Virus record (IMG/VR): IMGVR_UViG_2695420600_000017
Strand: one strand, 5' to 3'
Length of the DNA: 37,554 nt
From: a virus
Lineage: Duplodnaviria; Heunggongvirae; Uroviricota; Caudoviricetes
Shown: positions 1-37,554 of the stretch, in pieces
How positions within the stretch are numbered: the stretch's first letter is position 1
How the letters are laid out: each line of letters starts with the position of its first letter
The notes under the pieces: model-generated
Seen by the model: only the letters and a program-made list of their open reading frames with translations
The model's database searches: none
Told to the model about the DNA's origin: nothing
Translations under genes and position numbers: made by a program

Positions 1-330
1 GAACGTCTGGTTCAGCAGATTTGGCGCAACTGGCAGATTGTGGTTCGAGTTCGTAGTCGCTCTGAACTTGCGTTTCTGCTTACAGCGTAGCCTTAGCTCC
101 TTACGAAGACGTGCCAGTCGGTCACGACCAACGATGATGCCATTCTCTGCCAGCTCCGTCTGGAGCCGCCGGGTTCCATATGTTTCGCGAGTGCGGATAT
201 GTGCCACCTTAATCTCCAGTTTTAGCCGCTCATCACTTTGTTTTCTGTCTGAGGGTTCATGCTGTACCCAGTTGTAATAACCGCTCCTGGATACACCAAA
301 TACCTGACACATATAGCGCGGCGATTTTTT
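1..330 (-). mobile_element. IS3-family insertion sequence fragment (transposase OrfB-region N-terminal part, runs off window start; no orfA upstream)
   Basis: Hand translation of minus strand from ATG at 310-312 gives MCQVFGVSRSGYYNWVQHEPSDRKQSDERLKLEIKVAHIRTRETYGTRRLQTELAENGIIVGRDRLARLRKELRL..., the typical IS3-family OrfB N-terminal region before the DDE domain. An A7 run sits just upstream (about 324-331). Family-level resemblance ends near 313-330, where the prophage end repeats begin. Confidence 0.55.
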
Positions 331-1180: not shown

Positions 1181-1331
1181 AGGATTTCCTTGTGTATGTG
1201 GGGTGCTCTGTGGCGCTCTGAGATGTGATTTGATTGAGGGTTTTACAGCGCGGACATTTGACTTCCAGATAACTGAAGCTGGCTCGTGCCAGTAGCTTGT
1301 TACAATGTCGGCACCGTATGTTTCGATACAT
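1131..1331 (-). CDS. com: Com-like zinc-finger translational activator of mom
   Basis: [34 protein letters not shown]... carries the CxxC...CxxC pattern and resembles recalled Mu Com (MKSIRCKNCNKLLFKA...RCPRCK). AGGAGG about 10 nt upstream of the ATG at 1329-1331. The track ORF begins at a TTG further upstream. Confidence 0.7.
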
Positions 1332-1470
1332 GGCCGCATAACCTCCTGCTTTGTTGTTGATATCTTTATCACTCAATCGATCGACAAAAACGATCGATTT
1401 GATTTATTTAATTGATACAACAAATAACACGAAATGTCATTAGCGAAAATTTATGAGTTTGATCACTAAT
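1332..1470 (-). promoter_or_regulatory. Putative com-mom promoter/operator region with GATC (Dam) sites
   Basis: GATC at about 1379-1382 and 1392-1395 (within TCGATCGA and CGATCG palindromes) and again at about 1461-1464, upstream of com. In Mu the mom promoter is controlled through clustered GATC sites. Promoter elements themselves not identified. Confidence 0.3.
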
Positions 1471-4741: not shown

Positions 4742-5045
4742 CGTCTTTTCTGCCTGTTTCTGAATTAAACAGAGTCAGAATAACAACCGCTGATAAATAT
4801 GTGTTTTGCGGAAATTCAAAAAAAGCATCACGGTACTTTTTGTGACGGAGCCGGTTAGGCAGGAACATAACGACAAAGGATGGACAGGCCAATACGATAA
4901 CCGCATATTACCGGCTTATAATTGATTTAACGATTCATGACGCTGCGGTCAGCATCTGAAAATATGCGTTATTTCAGAAACCCCTTGCCTGTATATGGCG
5001 ATATTATTATTCCTGTTTTTATCATTGATTTACATGGTGATGTTT

Positions 5046-5567
5046 ATGCAACTGATTAATGTTAAACGATATTACCCGGAACAAAAACCCTTTGGTAATG
5101 ATGTACAGTATTTTCAAAGTGAAGATGGTAAGGATTTCTATGAGTCCCTGCCATTATTCACCAAAAAATATAAACTTTGCATAACCCCTGACAGCGGTGT
5201 TATCTGCTCAATATCACAGGATGCTTCGGCGCTGTATCCTGCGGGTTTTTCCGTTGTTGAGACAGACGAATTACCTGAAGGTACTGATATTTCAGGTAAC
5301 TGGAAGTTTGATAATGGTGTCATCTCACAACTCCCGGTTAACTATACCAAAAAAGCGGAAGCACTGCGCCAGTCATATCTTAATCAGGCATATGAAAAGA
5401 TTAATGACTGGAGAACTGAGTTACAGCTGGGCACGATTAGTGATGAAAACAGAGCTGCGCTTACACGATGGATGAAATACATCAGTCAGGTGAAAAAAAT
5501 GGAACTACCAGCGATTAAAAACAAAGCTGAATTTGACGCCATTAAATGGCCGGAGAAGCCTGAATAA
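5046..5567 (+). CDS. Tail fibre assembly protein (Mu U/U'-like, Tfa family), opposite strand to the late operon
   Basis: DISGNWKFDNGV and LQLGTISDENRAALTRWMKYISQV resemble recalled Mu U (DISGKWMFKDGVV, LRLGIISDENKQKLTEWM). Start chosen at the ATG with GGTGATG upstream; the track ORF starts at 4995. Confidence 0.7.
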   Translation: MQLINVKRYYPEQKPFGNDVQYFQSEDGKDFYESLPLFTKKYKLCITPDSGVICSISQDASALYPAGFSVVETDELPEGTDISGNWKFDNGVISQLPVNYTKKAEALRQSYLNQAYEKINDWRTELQLGTISDENRAALTRWMKYISQVKKMELPAIKNKAEFDAIKWPEKPE

Positions 5568-17842: not shown

Positions 17843-18790
17843 TTACAGATAATCCGCGACAACCAGCTCCAGCTTGCCCTTCATCTCGTTAGAGACGGTG
17901 GTGTTACCGTCCGCGAACAGCTCGCGCTCCAGCAGCTGCACCGCCTGTTTTTCCAGCGAGGTGGGGACAACAATATGGGTGGGTTTGATGCCGAGTTTGC
18001 GGCCACCGTCAGCCTTAAAGTCACGCATGGCTGACCAGCCGTGCCACAGCGCATCCAGCGTCAGCGGTGACTGCATCATGTAGGCCATCTGCCAGAAGCC
18101 GTAGCCCACATTGCGACGGGCGGAAGCACCGAACACAAACTCGTTATCAGTAAACGCACGGCCTTCATCGACTTTTGTCTGGGCAACCAGTTCGGCCTTG
18201 CGGCGATCCTGATAAATCAGCGGTTTTACCGCGCGGGAGCAGTCAAGCAGATACCAGGCCGGGCCGCTGTAATCCGCCTGTGCACCGACAGAGCCGGTTT
18301 TTGCCACAAACATATTGCTGACCATCTGTGCATCACCGGAGCCATCCACTTTGGGGTAAACAGGGTGTTCGGTATCAAAGAAGTTCTGGCCGTCATAGCA
18401 GGCCGCATTCAGACCATCACGCAGTGCAGCAAAGACCAGTTCATCCGGTTGTGCCGCCGCAGCGCGCCCCATCTCCTGGAACAACGGGGAGTAGATGCCA
18501 AGATTGTCGTCTTCAAAGTCATCGCGGCTAATGGCAACGGTGCCTTCAAAGGTTTTGTTCACGATGGCGTAGCCATAGGCTTTCATCTTCTCGATGACGC
18601 GGGAGCCGATCCACTCACGGAACTGCGGGAACTGCCCCAGCCAGCCGTAGGTGTTGGATTTCGACGTGGACGGTACGGTCATCGCAATTTTCTGGTACTG
18701 AGACGGAGCCATGGACATCCCGGCCTGAAAATCAGAACGGTAGCCCGTCATCAGGGCGGTGATCATCGCCGGTGTGATCGGGGTAGGCAT
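17843..18790 (-). CDS. Major capsid protein (Mu T/gp34-like)
   Basis: 315 aa immediately downstream of the protease/scaffold gene, as in Mu. Confidence 0.85.
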   Translation of the reverse strand: MPTPITPAMITALMTGYRSDFQAGMSMAPSQYQKIAMTVPSTSKSNTYGWLGQFPQFREWIGSRVIEKMKAYGYAIVNKTFEGTVAISRDDFEDDNLGIYSPLFQEMGRAAAAQPDELVFAALRDGLNAACYDGQNFFDTEHPVYPKVDGSGDAQMVSNMFVAKTGSVGAQADYSGPAWYLLDCSRAVKPLIYQDRRKAELVAQTKVDEGRAFTDNEFVFGASARRNVGYGFWQMAYMMQSPLTLDALWHGWSAMRDFKADGGRKLGIKPTHIVVPTSLEKQAVQLLERELFADGNTTVSNEMKGKLELVVADYL

Positions 18791-19914
18791 TATTGCATTT
18801 CCTCTTTCATTTTCAGGAACTCGGCTTCGGTTTTACCCAGCAGATGGGCGGCGGCGATATCTTCAGCCGACAGCGCAGCGGTGGCGGTCTTTTTATCCGG
18901 CACGGTTACGGTGTCGGTCTGAAGAGTGGTCAGAGCCGCAACCGGCTGGCGGGCGTCAAGCTGTGCAGAAAGTGCCGCAACACCAATCTGTTGTCCGAGT
19001 CCTTCCATGTATCCGCGTTCGCTTTTGAAAATGCGTCCTTCGGACTCGGCCTTATCCAGCAACTGCTCCAGCGTGGTGCTGCCGTGTTGTGCCGACAACG
19101 CGACATATTCGGTACGCAGGGCGTTATACGTCTCAACGGGCACGTATTTCGTCAGATCAATAGTGCCGCCAGTTGGTGTGCCTTTTGCGGTTTCCAGCTC
19201 TGCCGACAGGCTGGCAACCTGCGTTTTCAGGGTGTCGTGCGCATCCGCACGGGTTTTGATCCCGGTAAGGGCAGACAGCGCCGCCGTGCCCAGTTCCGGT
19301 GTAAATTCGTCACCGTCGGCCACGGTCAGACCGAGCGCCGTCAGCAACTGGCGTAATTGCTCATTCATGGAGGTGTCCTTTAAAGGAGGGTTTAAGGCGT
19401 TATAAAGGTCATCCGCCGACAGTGCGGCGACAGGATTCATGCCAGTCAGACCGGGGTCACCGGTAATAGCCAGCATCCGAAGCTCAACAGGTTCACCGGT
19501 GATTTCGTCATAACCAATCACCGGGGAAAACCAGGGAAATTCGTTATTGCGCAGGTGTTCAATGGCCGGAGGGTTCCAGTCCGGACGCACTTCAAAACCC
19601 CGCTCTTCACTGAAGCGGAAGTTTTCCGGTGAGGCCATGACAAAACCGGCAGCCGGTGCCGGATGCCCCTTAATCAGGGTCTGGTGGTTGTAGTCAATTT
19701 TTACCGGCTGATTGAGCGCCACAACCCGGGATACCATGCGCTCAACGGCCGCATGGTTAATCAGCCAGCCTTCCGCCGGTTTTTCCGGGCGACCGTCACG
19801 GGCCTTTACCCGACCGGCTGGCATGATCTGACACCAGTCACCGTCCCCGTCTGCGGACAGGCTGATGGCATTCAGAATGGCATAAGCAAGTTTGGGCGTG
19901 TTTTTCGTCTTCAT
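18790..19914 (-). CDS. Head maturation protease/scaffold protein (Mu I/gp32-like)
   Basis: 374 aa with an Ala-rich helical C-terminal half; directly upstream of the capsid gene. Confidence 0.8.
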   Translation of the reverse strand: MKTKNTPKLAYAILNAISLSADGDGDWCQIMPAGRVKARDGRPEKPAEGWLINHAAVERMVSRVVALNQPVKIDYNHQTLIKGHPAPAAGFVMASPENFRFSEERGFEVRPDWNPPAIEHLRNNEFPWFSPVIGYDEITGEPVELRMLAITGDPGLTGMNPVAALSADDLYNALNPPLKDTSMNEQLRQLLTALGLTVADGDEFTPELGTAALSALTGIKTRADAHDTLKTQVASLSAELETAKGTPTGGTIDLTKYVPVETYNALRTEYVALSAQHGSTTLEQLLDKAESEGRIFKSERGYMEGLGQQIGVAALSAQLDARQPVAALTTLQTDTVTVPDKKTATAALSAEDIAAAHLLGKTEAEFLKMKEEMQ

Positions 19915-20091
19915 TCCGGCAGCATAAGCCGGTGTTTTTCGGGGCCGGTTTTGCGGGACTTCAGAAAGTGCTGACAGGGGAAAAATGAGAAAGGCGCTTC
20001 ACGCAGATTTTAAAGCCCGTTAAATACAGGTTAGAAAATCACGACACGCGCCTGAAGAGGGTAAGGCAATGCGTTTGTATACCTTAAACCA

Positions 20092-20565
20092 TTACGGCGT
20101 TTCTGTGGCCTTTTTAAAGCGTTTTCTGATTTCGTCCATGATCTCCTGTTCTGCCACCTGATCAAAGCCCATATACGGACGTGCGCCAATGGCCGCCGGT
20201 CCCGGTGGCATACCAGGCAGGCCACCCCACTGATGAATGGCCGCATAAGGTTCATTTGATCCAATCAGCGCCCAGGTATCGCCATAATCCGTGGTCAGGC
20301 GGCGGGCCAGATCGCCGTTCAGTGTCAGGATTTTGCCGGGCGTGTATCCCTTACGGGTACGCCACTTGCGGTAAGGATCTGACCAGTCATGCCAGCGTTC
20401 GCCGTCCGGCTCTTTTTCCTGTTCAAACGCCATTTCTGACGATGACAGAAGACTCTCCGCCACACTGCGGGCCAGGTCTTTTCCGCCGCCCACAAACTGA
20501 AGCCGGGCAAACACCCGCTGGAGACGCGTAACGTCAACAACGACAGCGGCATCAATGGATGACAT
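20092..20565 (-). CDS. Virion morphogenesis protein (Mu G/gp31-like)
   Basis: 157 aa; position and size as Mu gp31. Confidence 0.7.
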   Translation of the reverse strand: MSSIDAAVVVDVTRLQRVFARLQFVGGGKDLARSVAESLLSSSEMAFEQEKEPDGERWHDWSDPYRKWRTRKGYTPGKILTLNGDLARRLTTDYGDTWALIGSNEPYAAIHQWGGLPGMPPGPAAIGARPYMGFDQVAEQEIMDEIRKRFKKATETP

Positions 20566-20686
20566 ATTGCCTCCGCATAAAGGATGAATATAAAATAAAC
20601 AGGCGGTCAGTGTACGCTTAACTGGTAAAGTCGGTGCCTGCCTCCGGGTGGATCATGTATGCGGGTTCGACCCCCGCCACTGACCG

Positions 20687-22018
20687 TTAATCAATTTGTC
20701 CTTCCAGCACCTCAAGCATTCCGCCCCGGATATCCGATTTCAGCTTATCCATATTGATAACCCGATAAGCATTCACAATCACATCCAGTTTGTCGGGCTG
20801 ACGTTTCAGACTGTACGGTGCATTAACGGCAATCTGCACACTGCCATCCTTATTTTCCACGATATACATCAGATTTTTGTGCCGTTTGTCCCACAGCACC
20901 GCTTTTGGCTTTGCCAGCATTGCCGGTAAGCGCCCGAAGTCCTCTGGCATCAGGGCGATGCCGTCATTCTGATGTTTCACACTGTCTGCATGGAGCACAT
21001 TTTTACCGCTCATCGCCAGCAGGCGGGCCGGTGGCGTTCCCGTCCGGCTTTCCACTGCCTGCGCAATGCTTTCAGTCATAAAGCCCAGCGTGCGGATATC
21101 GTTACCACCTCGCCGGGTCTGCATGATGTTTTTTGCCCAGATGCGGAACGCCAGCTGCCGCTCCGGGCTGTTGTTCATCTCCTGAACCACCATTTCCCGT
21201 AACGCCGGGCTTTTCACCTCGATCAGTTTGCGGATCAGCGCCTGGTCTGTGCCGAACGCTGCCGAGCCGGGGTTATATGACCAGCCCACATCCGGTGTCA
21301 TGGTTCTGGTGCCATCTGAATATGTGGTCACCGGCATTTCTCTGACTTCTCCGGTCTGTTTATCCACGCCAGCCTCAACATTGCGGGTGGAGAGATGATC
21401 CTCACCGGATGAAACGGATAACCCCATTGCATCCAGACGAGCCTGAGACAATGGCCGCACACGGCAGCGGCAGTTCCAGCCATTAGGTGGGTAGTGTGTT
21501 TTCCAGAACGGATCGTCATAGCGGAATACCAGACCGTTAAGGGCGGAATGCGACGGGCGGGTACGGCTGTCCATGACCGCCACATACTGCCAGAACGGAT
21601 GCGTGTCCGTGTTGTTCATCATCTGCGTGTAACGCCCGGCATTGTAAGCCACCCGGGTGTTCACGTTGTAAATCAGCGCCAGACGACGGGGACTGCCCAG
21701 TTGCACTTCTTCCGCGTTACCGTCGCTGTCCACCACAATCTGCTTTCCCCACCATCCCAGCTTTTGCAGGCGTGGCGTCAGCGTGCGGATAAATGCTTTC
21801 TGTGAAATTCCCTCATCAATGGCCCGCTGCACTTCGGCCTGTAACGTGGTCACCACATCCAGGCGTGCCGCTTTTGCTGCCGTGAATGAGCGGGCATGAA
21901 CATCCGCGGCTGTTTCGAACCAGTTCCAGCTGATATGCGCCCCTTTGACACGGAAGTATGCTACCGCCTCTTTTGAGGGAAGCGTGGCGGCATAACCTAA
22001 ATCAATCCCCTGTGTCAT
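20687..22018 (-). CDS. Head morphogenesis protein (Mu F/gp30-like)
   Basis: 443 aa directly after the portal gene. Confidence 0.8.
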   Translation of the reverse strand: MTQGIDLGYAATLPSKEAVAYFRVKGAHISWNWFETAADVHARSFTAAKAARLDVVTTLQAEVQRAIDEGISQKAFIRTLTPRLQKLGWWGKQIVVDSDGNAEEVQLGSPRRLALIYNVNTRVAYNAGRYTQMMNNTDTHPFWQYVAVMDSRTRPSHSALNGLVFRYDDPFWKTHYPPNGWNCRCRVRPLSQARLDAMGLSVSSGEDHLSTRNVEAGVDKQTGEVREMPVTTYSDGTRTMTPDVGWSYNPGSAAFGTDQALIRKLIEVKSPALREMVVQEMNNSPERQLAFRIWAKNIMQTRRGGNDIRTLGFMTESIAQAVESRTGTPPARLLAMSGKNVLHADSVKHQNDGIALMPEDFGRLPAMLAKPKAVLWDKRHKNLMYIVENKDGSVQIAVNAPYSLKRQPDKLDVIVNAYRVINMDKLKSDIRGGMLEVLEGQID

Positions 22019-26388: not shown

Positions 26389-26692
26389 TGTGTTTTTTCC
26401 TTACAGCCTGCTCCAGCAGCAGTTCGTTCTGGTGGGAGACGGATTTCAGGGTGGCATTGGTGGCCTTAAGCTCACCGCGCAGGGTGGTGATTTCGATATT
26501 GAGTCTGTTCACCTCCTGCTGCGTGGGCAGGCCGGAAATCCGGCTCTCCACCCGCTCAACCCGGTCGGAGAGTTTTTCAAAGGCCTCGCGGGGGACAAAG
26601 GTTTTGCGCATCAGCGCCATAAAGATCCCCCCGGCCGTGGCTGTTGCCGACAGGATCGGCACGACATAATCTTTAACGATGCTGACCCACAT
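26381..26692 (-). CDS. Small membrane-anchored coiled-coil protein (Mu late-region small protein)
   Basis: N-terminal hydrophobic helix PILSATATAGGIFMALM, then a heptad-like charged region. Confidence 0.5.
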   Translation of the reverse strand: MWVSIVKDYVVPILSATATAGGIFMALMRKTFVPREAFEKLSDRVERVESRISGLPTQQEVNRLNIEITTLRGELKATNATLKSVSHQNELLLEQAVRKKHNE

Positions 26693-26900
26693 GACCGGCC
26701 TCCATGATGTTCTGGCAGTTCACACAACGGATGGCATCCGGCACGGCAACCAGACGGGCAGCCGGAATGTCACCCCCGCAGTCCGCGCATACACGCCTGC
26801 CCGGTGTCTCCGCCACCCGGCGCTTACGTGTCAGCCGGTCACAAAGGGCGCGTTCTGTTGCACGCTCCATGACTGCCTGAGCACAATCTGAATCATCCAT
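26673..26900 (-). CDS. TraR/DksA-family C4 zinc-finger protein
   Basis: CADCGGDIP...RCVNCQ four-cysteine motif; start at the ATG at 26898-26900 with an AAGGA/AAAGG SD; about 75 aa like TraR. Confidence 0.65.
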   Translation of the reverse strand: MDDSDCAQAVMERATERALCDRLTRKRRVAETPGRRVCADCGGDIPAARLVAVPDAIRCVNCQNIMEAGHVGQHR

Positions 26901-26910
26901 ACCTTTTTCC

Positions 26911-27282
26911 TTACTTCGTCTTTCCTGCCGGAACAGCAGTCGTTCCGGCCATATCAGTAAATTCATGCTGTCGCTGTGTCTCCAGACGGCGGATGCTGGC
27001 CTTGTCCACGTTGCAGTTTTTAATCACCGCCAGCAGTTGCAGGTTGTAAGTGACCGATGCACCAAACGTGAACGGCTGCGGCGCGGGAGGGACCAGGCAG
27101 TCAGCCAGCCATTCAGCGGGGATCGGCACCGGCGGCACAGGGACGAATTTCACAGACGGCCCGCCGCACCCGGTCAGCCACATCATCAGGCACAGGAACA
27201 GAGGCCGCAGGCACCGTTGCCAGCGACCGGCGGACAATGCTCTGCTGTTCCTCGCTGTGCTGCATGTTCTGCTGTTTTTCAT
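26911..27282 (-). CDS. Putative o-spanin (Rz1-like outer-membrane lipoprotein), overlapping the i-spanin gene; start uncertain
   Basis: Lipobox LTGC after a hydrophobic stretch (LFLCLMMWLTGC), then a Pro-rich segment PVPPVPIP; ORF lies in another frame across the 3' end of the Rz-like gene. Confidence 0.45.
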   Translation of the reverse strand: MKNSRTCSTARNSRALSAGRWQRCLRPLFLCLMMWLTGCGGPSVKFVPVPPVPIPAEWLADCLVPPAPQPFTFGASVTYNLQLLAVIKNCNVDKASIRRLETQRQHEFTDMAGTTAVPAGKTK

Positions 27283-27634
27283 TCGTGGCCGCCTTACTGA
27301 TTTGTGAAATGAGTTGCAGGGTACGTTGCTGGTTTGCCAGCACCAGACGGGCTTCGTCCCGTTCACGCACAAGCACATGATTATTGTCTTCAAGACGCTG
27401 TGTCTTCTGGTGCATTCCCCATACCACGGCAGCCAGCACGCTCATCACCCCCAGCGCCGCCATACACCCTCCGGCAATCAGGGCCGGTAAGGGATTATTC
27501 ACCGCAGCCACAGCACACCCCGGAGCACTACAACGACACACAACAGCGCAATCATGAGTGGTCGCCAGAAGCGGTTCAGACTTTCGGCAAATCGTAGCGA
27601 CACAACCATTCATCCGCCGAACGGCGGGCCTCAA
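27113..27634 (-). CDS. Putative i-spanin (Rz-like: N-terminal TM helix plus coiled coil); start may be internal
   Basis: TM segment LPALIAGGCMAALGVMSVLAAVVW followed by a charged helical region (LEDNNHVLVRERDEARLVLANQQ); directly downstream of lys. Confidence 0.55.
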   Translation of the reverse strand: MRPAVRRMNGCVATICRKSEPLLATTHDCAVVCRCSAPGCAVAAVNNPLPALIAGGCMAALGVMSVLAAVVWGMHQKTQRLEDNNHVLVRERDEARLVLANQQRTLQLISQISKAATNEKQQNMQHSEEQQSIVRRSLATVPAASVPVPDDVADRVRRAVCEIRPCAAGADPR

Positions 27635-28076
27635 GACCGGGGAGTTTTACCCCCTTTGAATAAATCCAGCGGATATACTGCTTACAGGACCCGGGCATCT
27701 GCCCGGCATTGATAAGGCGCAGGAGCGTGGAGTTGCGAAAGTTCGTTTCACCGGCCCAGAAAATCCAGGAGGCCAGCGCCACCGTCTGACCACGGGTAAG
27801 CGGCACCTGAACATGACGATCGATAGCCGCAAAGGCCCATTTCATGTCCTTTTCCAGCAGCTCCAGACATTCTTCATCAGTTTTTGTCATCCCCGGTTTC
27901 ACATCCGGGCCGGTATGGCCGTAACAGATGGTGGGGGTGCCGGTGGGATCAATGTACGTGGTGTTTTCTTTCCCTTCCCAGTAGCCGGTGTAGTGCGTGG
28001 CAATGGTGAACGTCCCGGCTCCGGCCAGAACAAGGGCAATCAGCTTTTTACGCAGGGGTGCGGGGAGTTTTGGCAT
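27576..28076 (-). CDS. lys: Endolysin, T4-lysozyme-like muramidase with N-terminal signal-anchor (SAR-type)
   Basis: N-terminal hydrophobic LIALVLAGAGTFTIA; catalytic E...D...T spacing in WEGKENTTYIDPTGTPT; GETNFRNSTLLRLINAG block. Confidence 0.8.
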   Translation of the reverse strand: MPKLPAPLRKKLIALVLAGAGTFTIATHYTGYWEGKENTTYIDPTGTPTICYGHTGPDVKPGMTKTDEECLELLEKDMKWAFAAIDRHVQVPLTRGQTVALASWIFWAGETNFRNSTLLRLINAGQMPGSCKQYIRWIYSKGVKLPGLEARRSADEWLCRYDLPKV

Positions 28077-28147
28077 TGTTACGCTGTCTCATGGTGTTCT
28101 CTGAGTCAGCGTAACCGTGGGAAAAAGTGGGCAGGATTTGCGGAATA

Positions 28148-28570
28148 TCAGAAAAGCCGTGGCTGCGTGCGTTCCTGATGCAGGCGACGCTGGTTGCGGA
28201 TAACGGAGTAAATCTGCGTCTCTGACATCTGGTAGTGGCGGCGCAGGGTTTCAATTTTTTCGCCCTGGCTCCAGCGGGAAAAAATTTCATTATTGCGCAG
28301 TTCGGTGAAAAGGGATTCACCGACCGGGAGATAATAACCACGCCCGCCCATGTACCCGGCCTGTGCGGCTGCAACCTTACGGGCAAGCATTCCCGCCTGA
28401 GCAGGTTCAATCCCCTGACGGTGCAGTTCAGCACTGATCACATCAACCAGGTCCCGCAGCGTGCCGGGCCAGTTCTTTTTCAGCTCATCATCAGGAATAT
28501 CATCCAGACGGTCAATCAGCGCGTGCAGCTGTTCGCTGTCACCAAACATGCTCATCTGTGTTTCAGCCAT
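28148..28570 (-). CDS. mor: Mor/C-family transcriptional activator (positional Mor; the only member of the family in the window)
   Basis: 140 aa directly downstream of gemA; MFGDSEQLHALIDRL N-terminus and C-terminal HTH (ETLRRHYQMSETQIYSVIRNQRRL) resemble recalled Mu Mor. Confidence 0.7.
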   Translation of the reverse strand: MAETQMSMFGDSEQLHALIDRLDDIPDDELKKNWPGTLRDLVDVISAELHRQGIEPAQAGMLARKVAAAQAGYMGGRGYYLPVGESLFTELRNNEIFSRWSQGEKIETLRRHYQMSETQIYSVIRNQRRLHQERTQPRLF

Positions 28571-28640
28571 ACCCGCCTCCGGTCATCATTACACAGGGCA
28601 AGTTTAAAATAAAAATCCCGCGCTGTGGCGGGATTTGGGG

Positions 28641-29153
28641 TTAAAAGGGGGAGGATTCTTCATACAGCCTGCAAACGCGCTCATAACTCATCACTGTACG
28701 CGCTGACATCCCCAGCACATCCAGCATCTTGCGGCGGTGCCAGCGTTTGAGACGCTCCAGCACATCAGAGGCCAGCGCGGGGTGTTGTTCCAGCCACTGC
28801 CAGTTAGCCACACCTTCGCCGCCGTTCTGAGCGGCCGTCTGCGATTTCACCCAGCGGTTAAGGGCTGTTTCCCCGCCATCAGAGATAAAGCCCTGCCGGT
28901 GCATCACCTTCCAGATGGCGCGAATTTTGGCGGTCACCGTACCCGGTTTTAAGGCCCGGTTAACCGGCTTCTGACGCACTTTAAAACCGCGTTTTTTGAA
29001 AACATCCAGCACGCGGGATAACTCATCCGGTGACATATCCCGGCAACTGGGTTTGCCGGTGGCTGCCAGTAGTACGGATGTGTAGGTCTCATGGTCAAGC
29101 TGTAGATCGCGTTTTGCGACATGTATTAAGGTAATCAGGGAAGCGCGATTCAT
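28641..29153 (-). CDS. gemA: GemA-like protein (Mu gp16, gene expression modulator)
   Basis: 170 aa immediately upstream of the Mor-like gene, as in Mu. Confidence 0.6.
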   Translation of the reverse strand: MNRASLITLIHVAKRDLQLDHETYTSVLLAATGKPSCRDMSPDELSRVLDVFKKRGFKVRQKPVNRALKPGTVTAKIRAIWKVMHRQGFISDGGETALNRWVKSQTAAQNGGEGVANWQWLEQHPALASDVLERLKRWHRRKMLDVLGMSARTVMSYERVCRLYEESSPF

Positions 29154-29217: not shown

Positions 29218-29628
29218 ATGAAAATAGATTACGATGAAGTATTAAGTATTCTCACAACTTTTCAGGATGCTGAAACACCTTTCCTTACACTACAGGATCT
29301 GGGCATGGCTGAGGCAGAAGGAGAGGAAAAGGATAAAAAAGTTTTTCATCTTATGCTTCTCGCTGATAATGGCTCAATTGTTAATGGTGATATGCGGTCA
29401 GAAACACCAAAATATATTGGTTTCTTTTTTCATTCTCTGGGCGTTGGTTTCAGAAACACGCCCATTATGCTTACTCAGCAGGGGCATGATTTAGCTAACG
29501 CCCTGAGAAAAAAACCAATCCTTGAAAGAATCAAAAAGGAGTTTACAGACGCGCCATTTGATCTAATCAAAGAAGTTACCAAATCAATGTTAACCAGGTT
29601 CGTCAAAGAACGTATTGGGATTGACTAA
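29218..29628 (+). CDS. Hypothetical protein (136 aa), antisense-oriented gene inside the early operon, low-GC island
   Basis: ORF with AAAGG SD; about 40% GC locally against about 55-60% around it; its 3' end overlaps the convergent 102-aa gene by 39 bp. Confidence 0.5.
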   Translation: MKIDYDEVLSILTTFQDAETPFLTLQDLGMAEAEGEEKDKKVFHLMLLADNGSIVNGDMRSETPKYIGFFFHSLGVGFRNTPIMLTQQGHDLANALRKKPILERIKKEFTDAPFDLIKEVTKSMLTRFVKERIGID

Positions 29629-30306: not shown

Positions 30307-30590
30307 CAGTGCGTCACCTGTCCGTCTTCATCTTCAAGGCAGGCTCCGGTTTCTTCATCAACAAAAAAGCCTTCATACCCCATATGGCCGATGCGCAGCT
30401 CCTGACGGTGACCATACTGAACAATCAGCACGACAGCCTCCATATCAGGTGGGAAAGCATCATTCAGTGAATGCCAGGGATAACCGCGTAAATCCCCGAA
30501 ATAAACACCGGTCAGCGTTCCGCCACAGAGCGGCATTCCGGCGGCACACACAAGAGGTTCATCTGATTCAACAAATAAGGTCGTTATCAT
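30261..30590 (-). CDS. Hypothetical protein (109 aa)
   Basis: ORF in the early semi-essential region; start overlaps the upstream gene stop. Confidence 0.45.
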   Translation of the reverse strand: MITTLFVESDEPLVCAAGMPLCGGTLTGVYFGDLRGYPWHSLNDAFPPDMEAVVLIVQYGHRQELRIGHMGYEGFFVDEETGACLEDEDGQVTHWCHISALPELREVNA

Positions 30591-31138
30591 GGCGTTAACT
30601 CCCGTAATACAGCGTCCTCGGCAGTCCGGCGACGGTAATAAACTGCGTGAGCAGAATGTTCAGATATTCCAAACTTTTCGCCAATTTCCCGGAATGACAG
30701 ACGGCGTGGGTAATCGGAATCACGCAGCGCACGTATAAGACGTACATCATCATCAGATATGTGCGTGCCGGGGCGTAACTCTCCGCACTTTGTTAATCCA
30801 GCACCAATCATTCCTGCCCGACATCTGACAGAATCTTTATTACGTCCGAGATATTCTCCCATTTGCTGGCAGGTCATTGTTCTGGCATTTTTTCGAATAA
30901 ACTTATCTTCATCAGGTGTAAATCTTGGGTGTTTATATTTCAGTAACTCCGGGTATGAACTGCGCAATACACCAGTCCGGTTATATACAGCCCAGACAGT
31001 TCTTTTTATTCTGGCAGCAATATCCTTAACCGGGGTGGATGAATAAAGCGCAATCAGCAGCGCATCTTCTTCAGGTGTCCACGGACGGACATGAGCGGGG
31101 GCGCGACCTTTTAGTCCCATGGGTTGTAATTTCATCAT
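30587..31138 (-). CDS. DNA-binding protein with three tandem Myb/SANT-like HTH repeats
   Basis: Three repeats of about 45 aa: WTPEEDALLIALY...AVYNR, FTPDEDKFIRKNA...MGEYLGR, ISDDDVRLIRALR...EIGEKFGIS...AVYYRR. Confidence 0.55.
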   Translation of the reverse strand: MMKLQPMGLKGRAPAHVRPWTPEEDALLIALYSSTPVKDIAARIKRTVWAVYNRTGVLRSSYPELLKYKHPRFTPDEDKFIRKNARTMTCQQMGEYLGRNKDSVRCRAGMIGAGLTKCGELRPGTHISDDDVRLIRALRDSDYPRRLSFREIGEKFGISEHSAHAVYYRRRTAEDAVLRELTP

Positions 31139-32335: not shown

Positions 32336-32866
32336 TTATTTATTCAGTCCGGCGTCCTGTTCAAAAGGCTCGACATAAAAACTTTCAGCGCCTTTATTCA
32401 CCTTGATACCGGCAATGCCTTTCACAGCATCCGGCTCCGCCAGGACGGCTTCCTTGTTCACTTCCTCTTTCGTGCGGATGAAACGCTCAAGCCCCATACG
32501 GCGCAGCATTTCAATCACACCTTCCACATCACGGCTGACGCTGCATGATGGCGTTCCCAGCCGCCATGACACCGTTCCGGTGGTCAGATTGGCTGTTTTG
32601 GTTTTGCCGCCGTTCGTCAGCTCATCACGGTTGGTTTTGCACCAGTCCTGAATCCCTTTAAAAAGCACTTTGATTTGCTTTTTAAGATTTTCAATCTGCG
32701 GCGTATAACGGGCGGTGATTTCTGCCACTTCGTCATTCATCGCCGTTTCCAGGCGCAGCGCCTCTCGCTGAATATCTCCCAGGGTGCGGATATCACGGCT
32801 GACTTCTTCCCGGGTCTGCGGTGCCGCCTCGGCTGCGGCCTTTAATTTTGTAACGCGTTTAGCCAT
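32336..32866 (-). CDS. gam: Gam, host-nuclease inhibitor (Ku-like DNA end-binding protein)
   Basis: Blocks such as RDIRTLGDIQREALRLETAMNDEVAEIT, NRDELTNGGKTKTANLTTGTVSWR and ERFIRTKEEVNKEA match recalled Mu Gam. Confidence 0.9.
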   Translation of the reverse strand: MAKRVTKLKAAAEAAPQTREEVSRDIRTLGDIQREALRLETAMNDEVAEITARYTPQIENLKKQIKVLFKGIQDWCKTNRDELTNGGKTKTANLTTGTVSWRLGTPSCSVSRDVEGVIEMLRRMGLERFIRTKEEVNKEAVLAEPDAVKGIAGIKVNKGAESFYVEPFEQDAGLNK

Positions 32867-33994: not shown

Positions 33995-34222
33995 TTAGCT
34001 GACTTGTTTCGCACCAACAGAACGGCATATTCCGCTGTAAACTTCTGTCGCACCTTCGCGATCAAGTCCGGCAGATATCACCATTCGTGTGCGGTCATTA
34101 AATTCAAAAAGTAAATCGCCACATTCTTTATTTTCGGCCAGTGAAATCACCTTCACGTTATCGAAATTAACCAGGTAAAAGCGTCCGTAAATATCAGGAA
34201 TATTAAATACCGCCATAATCAC
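33995..34222 (-). CDS. Small protein immediately downstream of B (position of Mu kil)
   Basis: 75 aa; positional analogy only. Confidence 0.4.
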   Translation of the reverse strand: MIMAVFNIPDIYGRFYLVNFDNVKVISLAENKECGDLLFEFNDRTRMVISAGLDREGATEVYSGICRSVGAKQVS

Positions 34223-35160
34223 ACCTGTGAGAGTAATTCAGGGTTGGTATAAACCTCTTTAAAGGCCGCATTAATATGTTTTTCTGTCAGCGCCGCGCCT
34301 TCACCGCTGGCGGTGAGCCACGCCTGGTTAAGCGTATGTGTCAGAACGCGTAACGCTCCCGGCTTTTCAGCGATAGCCTGCATGACGGCCAGCTCGGCCT
34401 CACCACTGATCCCCCACGCCATGGCAATGGCCAGCACATCCGCCTTTTTGGCCTTGCGAAGTTGTTTTGTACGGGCAAGACGGCTGAACAGGCGCGATAA
34501 ATCATCAAAGGCGCGGCGTCCACCTTTAAACAATCCGCGCGGGTTACCAATAAGCACCATCCCGATCCCCGTGGCGTCCTGAATTGCCCGGAGTTGCTCC
34601 AGACCGTCAATACCAAGATGATCCGCCTCATCCACAATCACCAGTCCACGCGTTCCCATCAGGCGACGGCGGATGGCGCGGGATAATGCCCCTTTGTTCG
34701 CGCGGGTGTAATCAATCCCCAGCGCATCGGCCAGCTCCAGCAGACACTCCGTGACGCTGGAGTGCGCGGGTGACAGGGTGATCATCCAGGTGTTTGGTTG
34801 CTCCTGGCAGTAATTACGGGCAGTGGCCGTTTTACCCACACCCGGTACGCCCACAATAACGTTAATACAGCCCATCAGGCGAACCGCCTGAAACAGTGCG
34901 CGCAGCTCCTGGACTGTCTGAGTTTCCACAAACTGCGGCGGTTCCGGCAGTGCGCTTTGTTTATTCCAGTTCTCATACCAGGAGCGCAGGGAAGCAGCCA
35001 CAGCAGCGTTATCGCCTTTATATTTTCCCTTACGGAAAGCCGATAATGTGCCGTCGGAAATTCCCGCCTCTCTGGCGATGGCATACTGCGTCAGTACGCC
35101 GCCATCAATAAGTTCATCAATGGTCTTGATTACATCGTTAATATCGGTCATATTATTCAC
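34219..35160 (-). CDS. B: MuB-like ATP-dependent target-DNA activator (AAA+)
   Basis: 313 aa; Walker A GVPGVGKT and Walker B LVIVDEADHL; N-terminal HTH; directly downstream of the transposase. Confidence 0.9.
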   Translation of the reverse strand: MNNMTDINDVIKTIDELIDGGVLTQYAIAREAGISDGTLSAFRKGKYKGDNAAVAASLRSWYENWNKQSALPEPPQFVETQTVQELRALFQAVRLMGCINVIVGVPGVGKTATARNYCQEQPNTWMITLSPAHSSVTECLLELADALGIDYTRANKGALSRAIRRRLMGTRGLVIVDEADHLGIDGLEQLRAIQDATGIGMVLIGNPRGLFKGGRRAFDDLSRLFSRLARTKQLRKAKKADVLAIAMAWGISGEAELAVMQAIAEKPGALRVLTHTLNQAWLTASGEGAALTEKHINAAFKEVYTNPELLSQV

Positions 35161-35233: not shown

Positions 35234-37321
35234 TCAGGCCAGCGGATCACTTTCTTTTAATTTCGCTTCGAGCAGTTGCAATCCCCGCTGGAAATTACGC
35301 TCGTATTCTTCATCAGGTTCATCGTCAGCGACCGGTTGCTGAACGGTCACCGTATTACCCACAGGGCGGTATATGTTTTCCAGCCAGGGCTCCTGCGGCT
35401 TGTGCTCCAGCACGTTGACAACCTCATCCTCGGCATCACGGATTTTTTCCTCTGCGCGTTTACGCATGCCTTTAAGGCGCTGCTGCTGTTTGTAGTATTC
35501 CGCGCTGACAGGGAAGGCTTCGCGTTTATTGCCGTCCCATACCGCCTCGCAAATCACGCTGCCATCCGGGCGGCGCACGGTAATTCGTTCGGCATCATGA
35601 ATGTCATAGCTGATAAGTACCTTACGGCCATGCTCGTCACGCAGCTCGGGCGCGTAGTAAATATTATTCAGCCAGCGTATTTCACAGCGTCTTACAGGGC
35701 GCTCCACCATCGGCCGGAACATATCCCGCAGTTCAACATCGGACAGCCATTCAATTTCCGTGTCCTCTTCCGCCAGGCGTTTTTTTCTGAACTCCGCCGG
35801 GCTGTAATGTTTACCGTTCGGCTTCATGGGTAATTCATCGTGCGGCCGGTTGTTGTACCACTCAACACCGTCACGAATGGCATCAATCAGTTCAGACCAG
35901 GACGGTAAATCACGCATCGCTGACTGCTGCCGGGCGTTCAGCCGTTTGCCCTGTTGCAGGGCACTGAATGCCGAGCGTAAATCGCGGTTGGTTTTACGTA
36001 ACGTCTCGCGATCTGCTCCTTTCCCGAAATAGGTGCGGTATTTACGGGCTATGCGCATCGGTAATGTGCGGTTAAGCCGTTCGATAATGCCCCGTCCCTG
36101 CGGATTACCGGCAATCCCTGTCGGGTGATTAATCCCCAGTCGTGGCAGTATCCCCACAATCTCCTTATCCAGGACGTCGGCGGTTTCCCCGGAGCCATTA
36201 TCCGAGTAATACAGAAACGGTTTGCCATGATGGCGAATACCGTGCTGTATGGCACCGGCTACGGCGAAAACATTTTCAGCCAGGTCAAGGCTCCAGCCCA
36301 CCACAAAGCGCGTGCCACCGTCGATAACAAAGGTCACTTCCGGTGCGAATGGCCGCCCGTGAACCGGGTGCGCGCATTTCAGCTTCATGCCGTGACCGTC
36401 ACCAATCCAGACATAATTCACCGGCATTTTTGACCAGTCGCGGCGCGTGAATCCCTCAAGCTGGCGGTATTCACTGCCGGTAACCCGTCCTTTTTGTTTC
36501 ACCACTTCCGGCAGTTTCTTCATTGCGCGGCGAATGGTGTCATAAGACGGCATGATATCGAGCATATAAGGCTCATCAGCGTGCCGGTGCTGCCATTCGG
36601 CAACAAAATCCTCGTAAGCCTCGGTCATTGGTCGGCCGTTTGACTGGCGATACTGCGCCAGAAATTCGGGCAACCAGTTAATATCTTCGGCTTTTATTTC
36701 CTGGCGTTTACCTGGTGCCAGCAAAAGCAGGCGTTCAGCAGCGTTCTGTGCCTTATTAAAGGCCGCAATCCAGCGTTTCAGCGTGATTTCACTCAACACG
36801 CGACTGTTTCCCTTTCTGGCGTTCGCTATCTCAACCATTGCCACAATGCGCTCATCCAGTTGCGAGTGTGACAGGCGGTCAACGATGAACCGGATAGCTT
36901 TAGCGCAGCTGAAACCGGGTTGTTGCGTGAATTTCAGCACCTCACTGACGATCGCAATGCGTGCGTCTGCCACCTGGCGCTGGTTTTCAGTCAGGGCATT
37001 GAGGCGTTCGACCATCAGTTGTGGTGATCCGCGATATGCCTCCACCGCATCAACCACGGCAGACGAGCGTCTGGCCTTTGTCACCACCGGAGCCGGTGAT
37101 TCATCGGCTTTTTGCGTCATCAGTTGCAGGGCATAACGTTCGCGTAATGCCTGCTGTGTCACTTCAGGTAAACAGTCAATGCTGTATTCAAAACCTTTAG
37201 CGCCTTTCTTGCGGCGTCTGCTGGTTTCGCTGGTTGCATACTTCCTGATTGAATAGCGAACGCCTTGCTCCGTTCCCGGCATCCCCGGTAATCCAACCAG
37301 TTCTTTGACTGAAGCAAACAT
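35234..37321 (-). CDS. A: MuA-like DDE transposase
   Basis: 695 aa between ner and B; size and position as MuA (663 aa recalled). Confidence 0.9.
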   Translation of the reverse strand: MFASVKELVGLPGMPGTEQGVRYSIRKYATSETSRRRKKGAKGFEYSIDCLPEVTQQALRERYALQLMTQKADESPAPVVTKARRSSAVVDAVEAYRGSPQLMVERLNALTENQRQVADARIAIVSEVLKFTQQPGFSCAKAIRFIVDRLSHSQLDERIVAMVEIANARKGNSRVLSEITLKRWIAAFNKAQNAAERLLLLAPGKRQEIKAEDINWLPEFLAQYRQSNGRPMTEAYEDFVAEWQHRHADEPYMLDIMPSYDTIRRAMKKLPEVVKQKGRVTGSEYRQLEGFTRRDWSKMPVNYVWIGDGHGMKLKCAHPVHGRPFAPEVTFVIDGGTRFVVGWSLDLAENVFAVAGAIQHGIRHHGKPFLYYSDNGSGETADVLDKEIVGILPRLGINHPTGIAGNPQGRGIIERLNRTLPMRIARKYRTYFGKGADRETLRKTNRDLRSAFSALQQGKRLNARQQSAMRDLPSWSELIDAIRDGVEWYNNRPHDELPMKPNGKHYSPAEFRKKRLAEEDTEIEWLSDVELRDMFRPMVERPVRRCEIRWLNNIYYAPELRDEHGRKVLISYDIHDAERITVRRPDGSVICEAVWDGNKREAFPVSAEYYKQQQRLKGMRKRAEEKIRDAEDEVVNVLEHKPQEPWLENIYRPVGNTVTVQQPVADDEPDEEYERNFQRGLQLLEAKLKESDPLA

Positions 37322-37323
37322 AA

Positions 37324-37554
37324 TTACGCGACCTTACGAATGTAGCGGCTGGGCCAAATCTCCTCGGGCGGCACCCCCAGGCATTCCGCGATAATCCCCT
37401 CATACTTGGGAACATGGCGGTATACCGCGTTGTACAGATTGTTCTGACCCACGCCAGCTTTACGGGCCAGCGCCCTCATGCTTCCTTCTCTGGCTCTGAC
37501 TTCCCCCAAAATTCTTTGAGGATGCCAATCAGGCTTAACTTCATTTCTCGCCAT
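37324..37554 (-). CDS. ner: Ner-like DNA-binding regulator (Nlp/Ner family)
   Basis: 76 aa; ends with EEIWPSRY as in recalled Mu Ner (PEVIWPSRY); directly upstream of A. Confidence 0.8.
   Translation of the reverse strand: MARNEVKPDWHPQRILGEVRAREGSMRALARKAGVGQNNLYNAVYRHVPKYEGIIAECLGVPPEEIWPSRYIRKVA

What the first reader, a model, noticed from the sequence alone, without database searches (positions are those of the whole stretch)
28077..28640. Only one Mor/C-family activator where Mu has two
Mu has mor followed by C between gemA and lys. Here the 565 bp between them holds a single 140-aa Mor-like gene, and no second family member was seen elsewhere in the window. One protein may drive both middle and late transcription, or late activation works differently.
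Basis: partly seen in the sequence, partly recalled or inferred. Interest (0 to 1): 0.4.

Follow-up and report, generated by a model that had tools for sequence, protein, structure and literature searches.

The report
Single C-type late activator, ordinary
This Mu-like E. coli prophage really has only one Mor/C-family activator gene, but that is the usual state for Mu-like phages outside Mu's own genus, and the gene looks like a normal counterpart of Mu's late activator C.

Summary
The 564 bp between gemA (28641-29153, minus strand) and lys (27576-28076) hold one 140-aa Mor/C-family gene (28148-28570). Profile searches of all six reading frames find no second member. The interpretation needs correcting. 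The protein resembles Mu C (40% identity, 111 bits) more than Mor (28%, 59 bits). It sits where C sits, directly upstream of lys. It has candidate counterparts of both clamp-binding motifs of MuC. So mor and Mu's small middle operon are what is absent, not C. Three promoters with C-type layout share a 19-bp operator (TTTnYTGAnnTnCCGCAAA), no -35, and a TAnnCT -10. They lie upstream of lys, of the head protease gene I, and of a tail-region accessory gene. One Mor/C gene is the norm: among 48 matching phage records only the 14 Mu/D108/SfMu-type records have two. Six complete or near-complete non-Mu transposable phage genomes have one each. This same region occurs in 231 of 5,426 complete E. coli genomes, where RefSeq annotation shows one Mor-family gene. 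The likely program is two-step, early then late. How the activator gene is transcribed past a terminator-like hairpin after gemA is unresolved. Low interest.

The parts
28641..29153 (-). gemA homologue (170 aa). It is the last recognisable early-operon gene upstream of the activator.
   Evidence: Pfam GemA PF06252, 99.7 bits.
28603..28636 (-). Terminator-like hairpin AAATCCCGC-CACAGC-GCGGGATTT (28613-28636), followed by the T-rich tail TTATTTTAAA. It starts 5 nt after the gemA stop codon.
   Evidence: Terminator scan found a 9-bp stem with 5 GC pairs. The RNA fold gives -25.4 kcal/mol for the 80-nt gap, z = -2.5. The stem sequence is invariant in the E. coli, Salmonella and Citrobacter lineages. 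The same stem occurs in 79 of 120 IMG/VR loci that have no Mor/C gene.
28606..28640 (-). Speculative activator-dependent promoter overlapping the hairpin. A C-box-like CCCCAAATCC (28631-28640) is followed after 19 nt by TATTTT (28606-28611).
   Evidence: Regex scan and coordinates. The site is weak. It lacks the TTTnYTGA upstream half. The CCCC is replaced in variants L028 and L034. The spacing is 24 nt in the Citrobacter and Salmonella relatives.
28576..28580 (-). GGAGG ribosome-binding site of the activator gene.
   Evidence: Read from the sequence. Conserved in L018.
28148..28570 (-). The single Mor/C-family activator, 140 aa and C-type. It has N-terminal QMSMF and C-terminal QPRLF, which are candidate clamp-binding motifs. 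It also has the GGR-YY-P beta-strand linker and a C-terminal helix-turn-helix.
   Evidence: Pfam Mor, 106.9 bits. 40% identity and 111 bits to Mu C; 28% and 59 bits to Mor. Best PDB matches are MuC 9l0x and 9vw8 at 102 bits, against Mor 1rr7 at 47 bits. Invariant G75, G76, R77, Y80, P82. Motifs listed.
28108..28155 (-). Predicted late promoter Plys. Operator TTTTCTGATATTCCGCAAATCC (28134-28155), -10 TACGCT (28108-28113), no -35.
   Evidence: The box and the -10 are invariant while the spacer varies, across 29 IMG/VR relatives, L018 and Citrobacter L011. The box sits at the same position (-42 to -33) as CCATAATCCC in Mu Plys.
27576..28076 (-). lys (endolysin, 166 aa), the first gene of the late lysis/head operon.
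   Evidence: Pfam Phage_lysozyme, 126.8 bits.
19921..19968 (-). Predicted late promoter PI. Operator CTTTCTGAAGTCCCGCAAAACC (19947-19968), -10 TATGCT (19921-19926), immediately upstream of the protease gene I (18790-19914).
   Evidence: Conserved in L018 and in Citrobacter L011.
4777..4823 (-). Predicted third late promoter. Operator TTTTTTGAATTTCCGCAAAACA (4802-4823), -10 TATTCT (4777-4782), upstream of the 684-aa SASA-esterase/DUF6645 gene (2687-4741).
   Evidence: Found by a weight matrix trained only on the Plys and PI sites. Operator search with at most 1 mismatch gives 3 hits against 0.02 expected. L018 carries a comparable third site.

Best explanation
The gene at 28148-28570 is the phage's only Mor/C-family transcription activator, and it is the functional counterpart of Mu C, the late activator. 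The phage lacks Mor and Mu's middle operon, so it most likely runs a two-step program. Early transcription from the ner/A/B end reaches gemA. Some of it continues past the terminator-like hairpin (28613-28636) into the activator gene, so the activator accumulates slowly and at a low level. The protein then binds a roughly 19-22-bp operator (TTTnYTGAnnTnCCGCAAAnCC) that replaces the -35 element at three or more late promoters: lys, I, and the tail-region accessory gene. There it recruits sigma-70 RNA polymerase to the TAnnCT -10 hexamers. Its two candidate clamp-binding motifs may tie late transcription to phage replication, as reported for MuC. Shown here: family membership, single copy, greater similarity to C than to Mor, position, conserved promoter-like elements, and that single copy is the rule in relatives. 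Inferred: binding to the operators, read-through of the hairpin, and use of the clamp.
For: Single copy: (L003). C-type identity. It sits directly upstream of lys, as C does in Mu. Motifs QMSMF and QPRLF resemble the family consensus Qx[D/E][L/M]F and QPDLF reported by Ho and Harshey, PMC12867686; the third position differs in both. DNA-contact residues reported for C (R72, Y75, P77, S110, Q113, Y115) are conserved, while R98, Q116 and R120 differ. That fits a changed operator sequence. Late promoters: operator plus -10 at a fixed 19-20-nt spacing, occurring only upstream of lys, I and the 684-aa gene, with 3 hits against 0.02 expected. In relatives the box and the -10 are invariant while the spacer varies. 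The geometry equals Mu's late promoters, where the C site is centred at -43.5 and there is no -35 (PMC2582627). Single activators elsewhere: 34 of 48 phage records have one match, and all 14 with two are Mu/D108/SfMu/Yersinia Mu-type. HMM counts are one each in BcepMu, HS6, Kp4866-3, YO107_2, martha 12B12 and the Sp18-like L018, and two in Mu. All 41 hairpin-bearing IMG/VR loci that have a Mor/C gene have exactly one within the stretch held. In Pseudomonas phage Fc02 the paper lists the mor homologue among the genes of the early pE operon (PMC9936078). In BcepMu the gene overlaps gemA.
Against: No transcript or binding data exist for this phage. The hairpin with its U-tract looks like a competent terminator, so read-through could be too weak. 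In variants L028 and L034 two hairpin copies and a reverse-oriented gene lie between gemA and the activator, which makes pure read-through less comfortable. No operator was found upstream of P or of com/mom, where Mu has C-dependent promoters. The weight-matrix score of the third site alone is at the level of the best shuffle. The operator consensus was derived from the sites it then 'finds'.
Confidence: 0.62

Rival explanations
1. The hairpin region after gemA is a composite like Mu's t9.2/Pm. It ends the early operon and at the same time is an activator-dependent promoter for the Mor/C gene. Because no Mor exists, the C-type protein would activate its own gene. That is positive autoregulation, primed by a little read-through, and it would give a switch-like early-to-late transition.
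For: The 5' arm CCCCAAATCCCGCC resembles the late box CCGCAAATCC and also Mu Plys CCATAATCCCGC. A -10-like TATTTT follows at 19 nt, and there is no -35. In the P0097 lineage (L014, L015) both copies of the hairpin are followed at 20-21 nt by TATACT, TATATA or TATGAT. The stem sequence is invariant across lineages whose flanking DNA cannot be aligned. One variant (T to C, L003 and 2 IMG/VR loci) breaks a stem pair but keeps a box-compatible base. In Mu, Pm overlaps the early terminator. Variants with two hairpins and a reverse gene in between argue that some promoter lies next to the activator gene.
Against: The site lacks the TTTnYTGA upstream half that is present in all three late operators. 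The CCCC of the box is replaced by TCCT or CTCT in L028 and L034. The spacing to the -10-like hexamer is 24 nt in the Citrobacter and Salmonella relatives. The same stem occurs in 79 of 120 IMG/VR loci without any Mor/C gene, so it is a generic terminator stem. An A-tract, GC stem and T-tract will produce 'box + 20 nt + TAT...' as a by-product of terminator geometry.
Confidence: 0.2
2. A non-homologous early protein plays Mor's role and switches on the activator gene. Candidates are GemA and the 183-aa weak Myb/HTH protein at 30587-31138. A three-step cascade would then exist with an unrelated middle regulator.
For: The activator gene is separated from the early operon by a terminator-like hairpin and has no sigma-70 -35 element. 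The early region encodes several uncharacterised proteins and one with weak Myb/HTH matches.
Against: The 183-aa gene is not conserved in the Citrobacter or Salmonella relatives, which keep the same gemA-hairpin-activator-lys layout. No motif other than the hairpin is conserved upstream of the activator. Nothing links GemA to promoter-specific activation.
Confidence: 0.1
3. The prophage is a decayed Mu relative that lost mor and the middle operon by deletion and cannot complete late development.
For: The gap is 564 bp against about 1.7 kb in Mu.
Against: The same compact layout occurs in 231 complete E. coli genomes and in divergent Salmonella, Citrobacter and Vibrio relatives. Sp18-like relatives sit at variable sites, including inside Stx phages with target duplications. 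The authors take this as consistent with active transposition (PMC10132054). All late genes in the window are intact ORFs.
Confidence: 0.03

Closest known systems
Bacteriophage Mu late transcription activator C (gp21; PDB 9l0x, 9vw8)
   Same: Same Pfam family and same length (140 aa), 40% identity. Same position immediately upstream of lys. Candidate clamp-binding motifs at both ends. Conserved GGR-Y-P beta-strand and helix-turn-helix contact residues S, Q and Y. Target promoters have no -35, and an operator occupies about -54 to -33.
   Different: The operator sequence differs (CCGCAAA core against Mu's ATAACCCC/TTAT-N6-ATAA). Contact residues R98, Q116 and R120 of C are replaced. The gene is not preceded by a Mor-dependent middle promoter or by gp18-20. 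No operator was detected upstream of P or com/mom. A third operator instead serves a tail-region accessory gene.
Bacteriophage Mu middle operon regulator Mor (gp17; PDB 1rr7)
   Same: Same family. Like mor, this is the first regulator gene downstream of gemA, and it is probably fed by early transcription.
   Different: Only 28% identity (59 bits). It does not overlap gemA and lies behind a terminator-like hairpin. There is no downstream second activator gene for it to switch on. Mor has only a partial N-terminal clamp motif (DLF), whereas this protein has candidate motifs at both ends.
Single Mor/C 'late regulator' genes of other transposable phages (BcepMu gp01, Vibrio martha 12B12, Pseudoalteromonas HS6 gp44, Sp18-like E. 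coli prophages)
   Same: One family member per genome, placed after gemA at the end of the early region or just before the lysis/head genes. Public records annotate it as late activator, Mor/C, or middle operon regulator.
   Different: In BcepMu the gene overlaps gemA and the late genes are on the other strand. Here a 70-bp gap with a hairpin separates it from gemA, and lys follows directly.

Membership tests
Mor/C family of phage transcription activators (Pfam PF08765) | Significant match to the family profile over the full domain. | tested here: met
   Pfam Mor 106.9 bits (cut-off 24.9), covering residues 33-139 of 140. 170.7 bits on the own family HMM.
Mor/C family of phage transcription activators (Pfam PF08765) | Small protein (about 100-150 aa), acidic N-terminal half, basic C-terminal half with a helix-turn-helix (PMC2582627). 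| tested here: met
   140 aa. The N-half has 13 D/E against 7 K/R. The C-half has 7 D/E against 11 K/R. The C-terminal region aligns with the helix-turn-helix of C.
Mor/C family of phage transcription activators (Pfam PF08765) | Invariant glycines and Y/P of the beta-strand linker between the dimerisation and DNA-binding domains. | tested here: met
   G75, G76, R77, Y80 and P82 are invariant in the 11-sequence alignment that includes Mu C.
Mor/C family of phage transcription activators (Pfam PF08765) | Clamp-binding motif(s): N-terminal Qx[D/E][L/M]F and/or C-terminal QPDLF (PMC12867686). | tested here: inconclusive
   QMSMF at residues 5-9 and QPRLF at 136-140. The third position differs from the family consensus in both (S and R instead of D/E and D). 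S is allowed in the general clamp consensus QL[SD]LF. This is sequence resemblance only; binding was not tested.
Mor/C family of phage transcription activators (Pfam PF08765) | Binds a dyad-like element centred near -43.5 of promoters lacking a -35, and activates sigma-70 RNA polymerase. | not testable with these tools
   Three conserved operator/-10 arrangements with the right geometry were found. Binding and activation need experiments.
Mu C-type late activator (functional orthologue of gp21) | Closer to C than to Mor in sequence. | tested here: met
   111 bits against 59 bits by BLASTP. 102 bits against 47 bits versus PDB chains.
Mu C-type late activator (functional orthologue of gp21) | Gene lies immediately upstream of Plys and lys. 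| tested here: met
   A 71-bp gap to lys contains the operator and the -10.
Mu C-type late activator (functional orthologue of gp21) | Expressed from a Mor-dependent middle promoter, as part of a middle operon. | tested here: not met
   There is no Mor, no gp18-20 and no match to the Mu Pm region. Only a hairpin and 70 bp precede the gene.
Mu C-type late activator (functional orthologue of gp21) | Controls four late promoters: lys, I, P, mom. | tested here: inconclusive
   Operators were found for lys and I and for a different third gene. None was found upstream of P or com/mom.
Mu Mor-type middle activator | Last gene of the early operon, overlapping gemA, and activating a promoter for a second (C) activator gene. 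| tested here: not met
   A 70-bp gap with a terminator-like hairpin lies between gemA and the gene. There is no second family gene in the window or in the complete relative L003.

The most novel reading that the evidence does not exclude
The conserved hairpin after gemA may be both the early-operon terminator and a promoter that the single C-type activator switches on itself. The phage would then replace Mu's Mor-to-C relay with a self-amplifying loop. The same hairpin also serves as the insertion point for variable cargo genes. Mu's Pm/t9.2 composite would be the two-protein elaboration of this simpler design.
Probability: 0.2. Interest if true: 0.4.

Novelty: already known. Interest (0 to 1): 0.15.

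Why it matters
It matters little beyond correct annotation. It shows that Mu's textbook three-step cascade (early, Mor, C, late) is a speciality of the Mu/D108/SfMu group. Most Mu-like phages, including this very common E. coli Sp18-like prophage lineage, manage with one C-type activator. The predicted operator and three late promoters give concrete, testable targets for anyone studying induction of these prophages in Shiga-toxin-producing and other E. coli. The unresolved point is how the activator gene is expressed behind a terminator-like hairpin. That is a small but tractable question about timing in a two-step phage program.

Tried and rejected
1. Second family member among small ORFs. 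Rejected by phmmer, the own HMM and relaxed tblastn. The 75-aa ORF 33995-34222 gave E = 0.009 to Mor but hhalign probability 3% and no Pfam hit.

2. TGTGTAATGAT upstream of the activator as a Pm-like -10. Rejected because it is not conserved in the 89%-identical L018 lineage.

3. The hairpin as an activator-specific site. Weakened because the same stem occurs in 79 of 120 IMG/VR loci without a Mor/C gene.

4. The 183-aa Myb/HTH-like early protein as a Mor analogue. Unlikely, because it is absent from the Citrobacter and Salmonella relatives.

5. Large-scale locus retrieval with family alignments. This failed for lack of conserved peptide stretches. A narrower alignment gave only 3 genome loci.

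6. Operators upstream of P and com/mom. None found.

7. Rfam on the finding region. Only sub-threshold chance hits.

8. The first weight matrix was over-fitted. Its third hit scored at the level of the best shuffle, so I rely instead on the operator pattern, the -10 spacing and the intergenic position.

Full report
What is there. The window is a Mu-like prophage read on the minus strand. ner is at 37324-37554, the transposase gene A at 35234-37321, B at 34219-35160 and gam at 32336-32866. The head and tail genes follow, and com/mom lie at about 440-1376. By comparison with an annotated relative, bases 1-311 are host flank. In the region of the finding, gemA is 28641-29153, a 140-aa gene is 28148-28570 and lys is 27576-28076. 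The Pfam scores are GemA 99.7, Mor 106.9 and Phage_lysozyme 126.8 bits. The interval 28077-28640 is 564 bp. In Mu (AF083977) the corresponding stretch is about 1.7 kb and holds mor, the middle promoter Pm, gp18, gp19, gp20, C and Plys.

Is it really the only family member? Yes. I took all 865 stop-to-stop ORFs of at least 25 aa in six frames. phmmer with Mu Mor, Mu C and the window protein found only this gene. A family HMM, built from those three query proteins plus 142 representatives at 50% clustering drawn from a 1.8-billion-protein search (145 sequences), scored it at 170.7 bits and the next ORF at 3.8 bits. Relaxed tblastn and a DNA comparison with Mu's gemA-to-lys stretch showed no remnant of a second gene. 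One marginal match remains: the 75-aa ORF 33995-34222, with E = 0.009 to Mor. It covers only part of the dimerisation region, has no Pfam hit and gives hhalign probability 3% against the family alignment. The window lacks the repressor end of the phage. A 99%-identical complete prophage with flanks (L003, strain JE86-ST02) also has one HMM hit, and PGAP annotates one 'Mor transcription activator family protein'.

Which of Mu's two proteins does it correspond to? C.
- It is 40% identical to C (111 bits) and 28% identical to Mor (59 bits). Mor and C themselves share 37%.
- Against solved structures, the best matches are MuC chains 9l0x and 9vw8 (102 bits), ahead of Mor 1rr7 (47 bits).
- It has C's length and C's position immediately upstream of lys.
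- It has QMSMF at residues 5-9 and QPRLF at its C-terminus. MuC has two clamp-binding motifs, QHDLF and QPDLF, that are required for late transcription. Ho and Harshey report the family consensus as N-terminal Qx[D/E][L/M]F and C-terminal QPDLF. Mor has only DLF at its N-terminus (PMC12867686). The window's motifs differ from the consensus at the third position, so they are candidates only.
- The beta-strand linker residues (G75, G76, R77, Y80, P82) are invariant.
- Of the DNA-contact residues listed for C in the cryo-EM preprint, R72, Y75, P77, S110, Q113 and Y115 are conserved. R98, Q116 and R120 are not. That would fit a different operator sequence.

Late promoters. Upstream of lys and of the protease gene I there is a shared element, TTTnYTGAnnTnCCGCAAAnCC. 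It is followed after 20 nt by TACGCT or TATGCT, with no -35.
- With the -10 placed at -12 to -7, the CCGCAAAnCC core lies at -42 to -33. That is where CCATAATCCC lies in Mu Plys, as read from the Mu record. It is also consistent with the C site centred at -43.5 that replaces the -35 (PMC2582627).
- Variation supports function. In 29 IMG/VR relatives, in the 89%-identical Sp18-like phage L018 and in a Citrobacter relative (about 70% DNA identity), the box and the -10 are invariant or nearly so. The spacer between them varies.
- A weight matrix trained only on the lys and I sites picked a third site at 4772-4825, with a 19-nt spacing to TATTCT. It lies in the intergenic region upstream of a 684-aa SASA-esterase/DUF6645 gene.
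- The 19-bp operator pattern with at most one mismatch occurs three times in the window against 0.02 expected. All three are on the phage's coding strand and in front of late genes. The pattern was derived from these sites, so the statistic is partly circular. The third site's weight-matrix score alone is only at the level of the best shuffle.
- No such operator was found upstream of P or of com/mom.

How is the activator gene itself expressed? This is the unresolved part. Immediately after the gemA stop codon lies a hairpin, AAATCCCGC-CACAGC-GCGGGATTT (28613-28636), followed by TTATTTTAAA. The scan calls it terminator-like and it folds stably. Downstream of it there is no conserved sigma-70 promoter. 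A TAATGA that resembles the Mu Pm region is not conserved in L018.

Two readings are possible.
- (a) Read-through of a leaky terminator at the end of the early operon. This would keep a potentially toxic protein low and late; MuC over-expression is lethal. It is the simplest reading. It matches phages in which the single activator gene overlaps or abuts the preceding early gene: BcepMu and L017. It also matches Fc02, where the paper lists the mor homologue among the genes of the early pE operon.
- (b) A composite like Mu's t9.2/Pm, in which the 5' arm (CCCCAAATCC, 19 nt before TATTTT) is a weak C-type box and the protein activates its own gene.

In favour of (b):
- The arm resembles the late box and Mu Plys.
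- Both hairpin copies in L014 and L015 carry a TATAnT-like hexamer at 20-21 nt.
- The stem sequence is invariant across lineages.
- Some variants have two hairpins and a reverse-oriented gene between gemA and the activator.

Against (b):
- The upstream operator half is missing.
- The CCCC is not kept in L028 and L034.
- The spacing is 24 nt in the Citrobacter and Salmonella relatives.
- The same stem occurs in 79 of 120 IMG/VR loci that have no Mor/C gene, so it is a generic terminator stem.

I put (a) ahead of (b).

Is one activator unusual? No.
- A tblastn of the protein against 50,697 phage records found 48 records with a match. The 14 records with two matches are all Mu, D108, SfMu, Mu_3F6, PhiR68_1 or the Yersinia Mu-type phages. 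The other 34 have one; they include Burkholderia BcepMu-type, Vibrio, Shewanella, Pseudoalteromonas, Pasteurella, Klebsiella, Ralstonia and the Sp18-like phages.
- tblastn could miss a divergent paralogue, so I ran the family HMM over six complete or near-complete genomes. BcepMu, HS6, Kp4866-3, YO107_2, martha 12B12 and L018 each gave one hit (82-160 bits, next best at most 8.6 bits). Mu gave two.
- Every other locus fetched had one. So did all 41 hairpin-bearing IMG/VR loci that carry a Mor/C gene, within the stretch held.
- The relative closest to Mu C (P0097, 160 bits) also sits alone between gemA and lys.
- The literature treats 'the late regulator Mor/C' as one core gene of transposable phages (PMC8705779).
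- Mor is not a recent tandem copy of C. C is closer to P0097, P0095 and the window protein than it is to Mor. Mor's nearest representative (P0164, 125 bits) lies directly upstream of an endolysin gene on a short contig.

How common is this element? The identical protein is on at least 1000 public contigs and is named a Mor family protein or transcriptional regulator. The gemA-to-lys region occurs in 231 of 5,426 complete E. coli genomes. The 89%-identical form is the Sp18-like Mu-like phage found at variable sites, including inside Stx phages. Its authors take that as consistent with transposition-dependent replication (PMC10132054). So the compact layout is not decay.

Verdict. It misreads which gene is 'missing' and how unusual this is. 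The element is an ordinary, already annotated single C-type late activator in a two-step Mu-like program. The operator and promoter predictions, and the question of the hairpin, are the only new details, and they are modest.

Noticed in passing
window 20606-20685 (+): A tRNA-like element lies antisense to the late genes, in the gap between F (20687-22018) and G (20092-20565). Rfam tRNA scores 31 bits (gathering score 29), E = 2.7e-4. ARAGORN calls nothing. PGAP labels the equivalent in L003 'tRNA-OTHER'.
   Followed up: partly
window 28613-28636; L014/L015 about 3378 and 3932; L028 806 and 1451; L034 731 and 1451: The post-gemA hairpin AAATCCCGC-N6-GCGGGATTT is duplicated around different cargo genes in relatives. 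The cargo is a forward 140/144-aa ORF in L014/L015 and a reverse 122/144-aa ORF in L028/L034. The hairpin therefore looks like a hotspot for insertion of extra genes between the early and late regions. In L024 the 5' arm is replaced by sequence encoding a 467-aa ORF.
   Followed up: partly
window about 1331-1410 (-): com probably starts at the ATG near 1331 (MYRNIRC...), not at the TTG at 1376. Just upstream is a cluster of GATC sites (AAATCGATCG...GTCGATCGATT), similar to the GATC cluster that lies upstream of the com/mom late promoter in the Mu record. No CCGCAAA operator was found there.
   Followed up: partly
window 19914-19926 (-): The predicted -10 of PI (TATGCT) ends only 6 nt before the ATG of the protease gene I. 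The I mRNA may therefore be leaderless or nearly so. The same arrangement is present in L018 and the Citrobacter relative.
   Followed up: no
window 2687-4741 (-) and 4995-5567 (+): A 684-aa protein with a SASA (sialate O-acetylesterase-type) domain and DUF6645 has its own predicted late promoter. Next to it, a tail-fibre assembly gene lies on the opposite strand. No invertase gene was seen among the ORFs scanned.
   Followed up: no
window 29218-29628 (+) and 30587-31138 (-): A reverse-oriented DUF2513 gene sits inside the early region just upstream of gemA. A 183-aa early protein with weak Myb/HTH matches is present here but absent from the Citrobacter and Salmonella relatives. Both look like accessory cargo.
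   Followed up: partly
window 26673-26966 (-): A TraR/DksA-type zinc-finger protein is encoded among the lysis and packaging genes, and it is conserved in most relatives examined. Because DksA-like proteins act on RNA polymerase, it might modulate late transcription. Not examined further.
   Followed up: no
window 1-311: By comparison with the annotated ends of the Mu-like phage in LC727881, the prophage right end lies at about 312. The first 311 bases are therefore host flank.
   Followed up: partly
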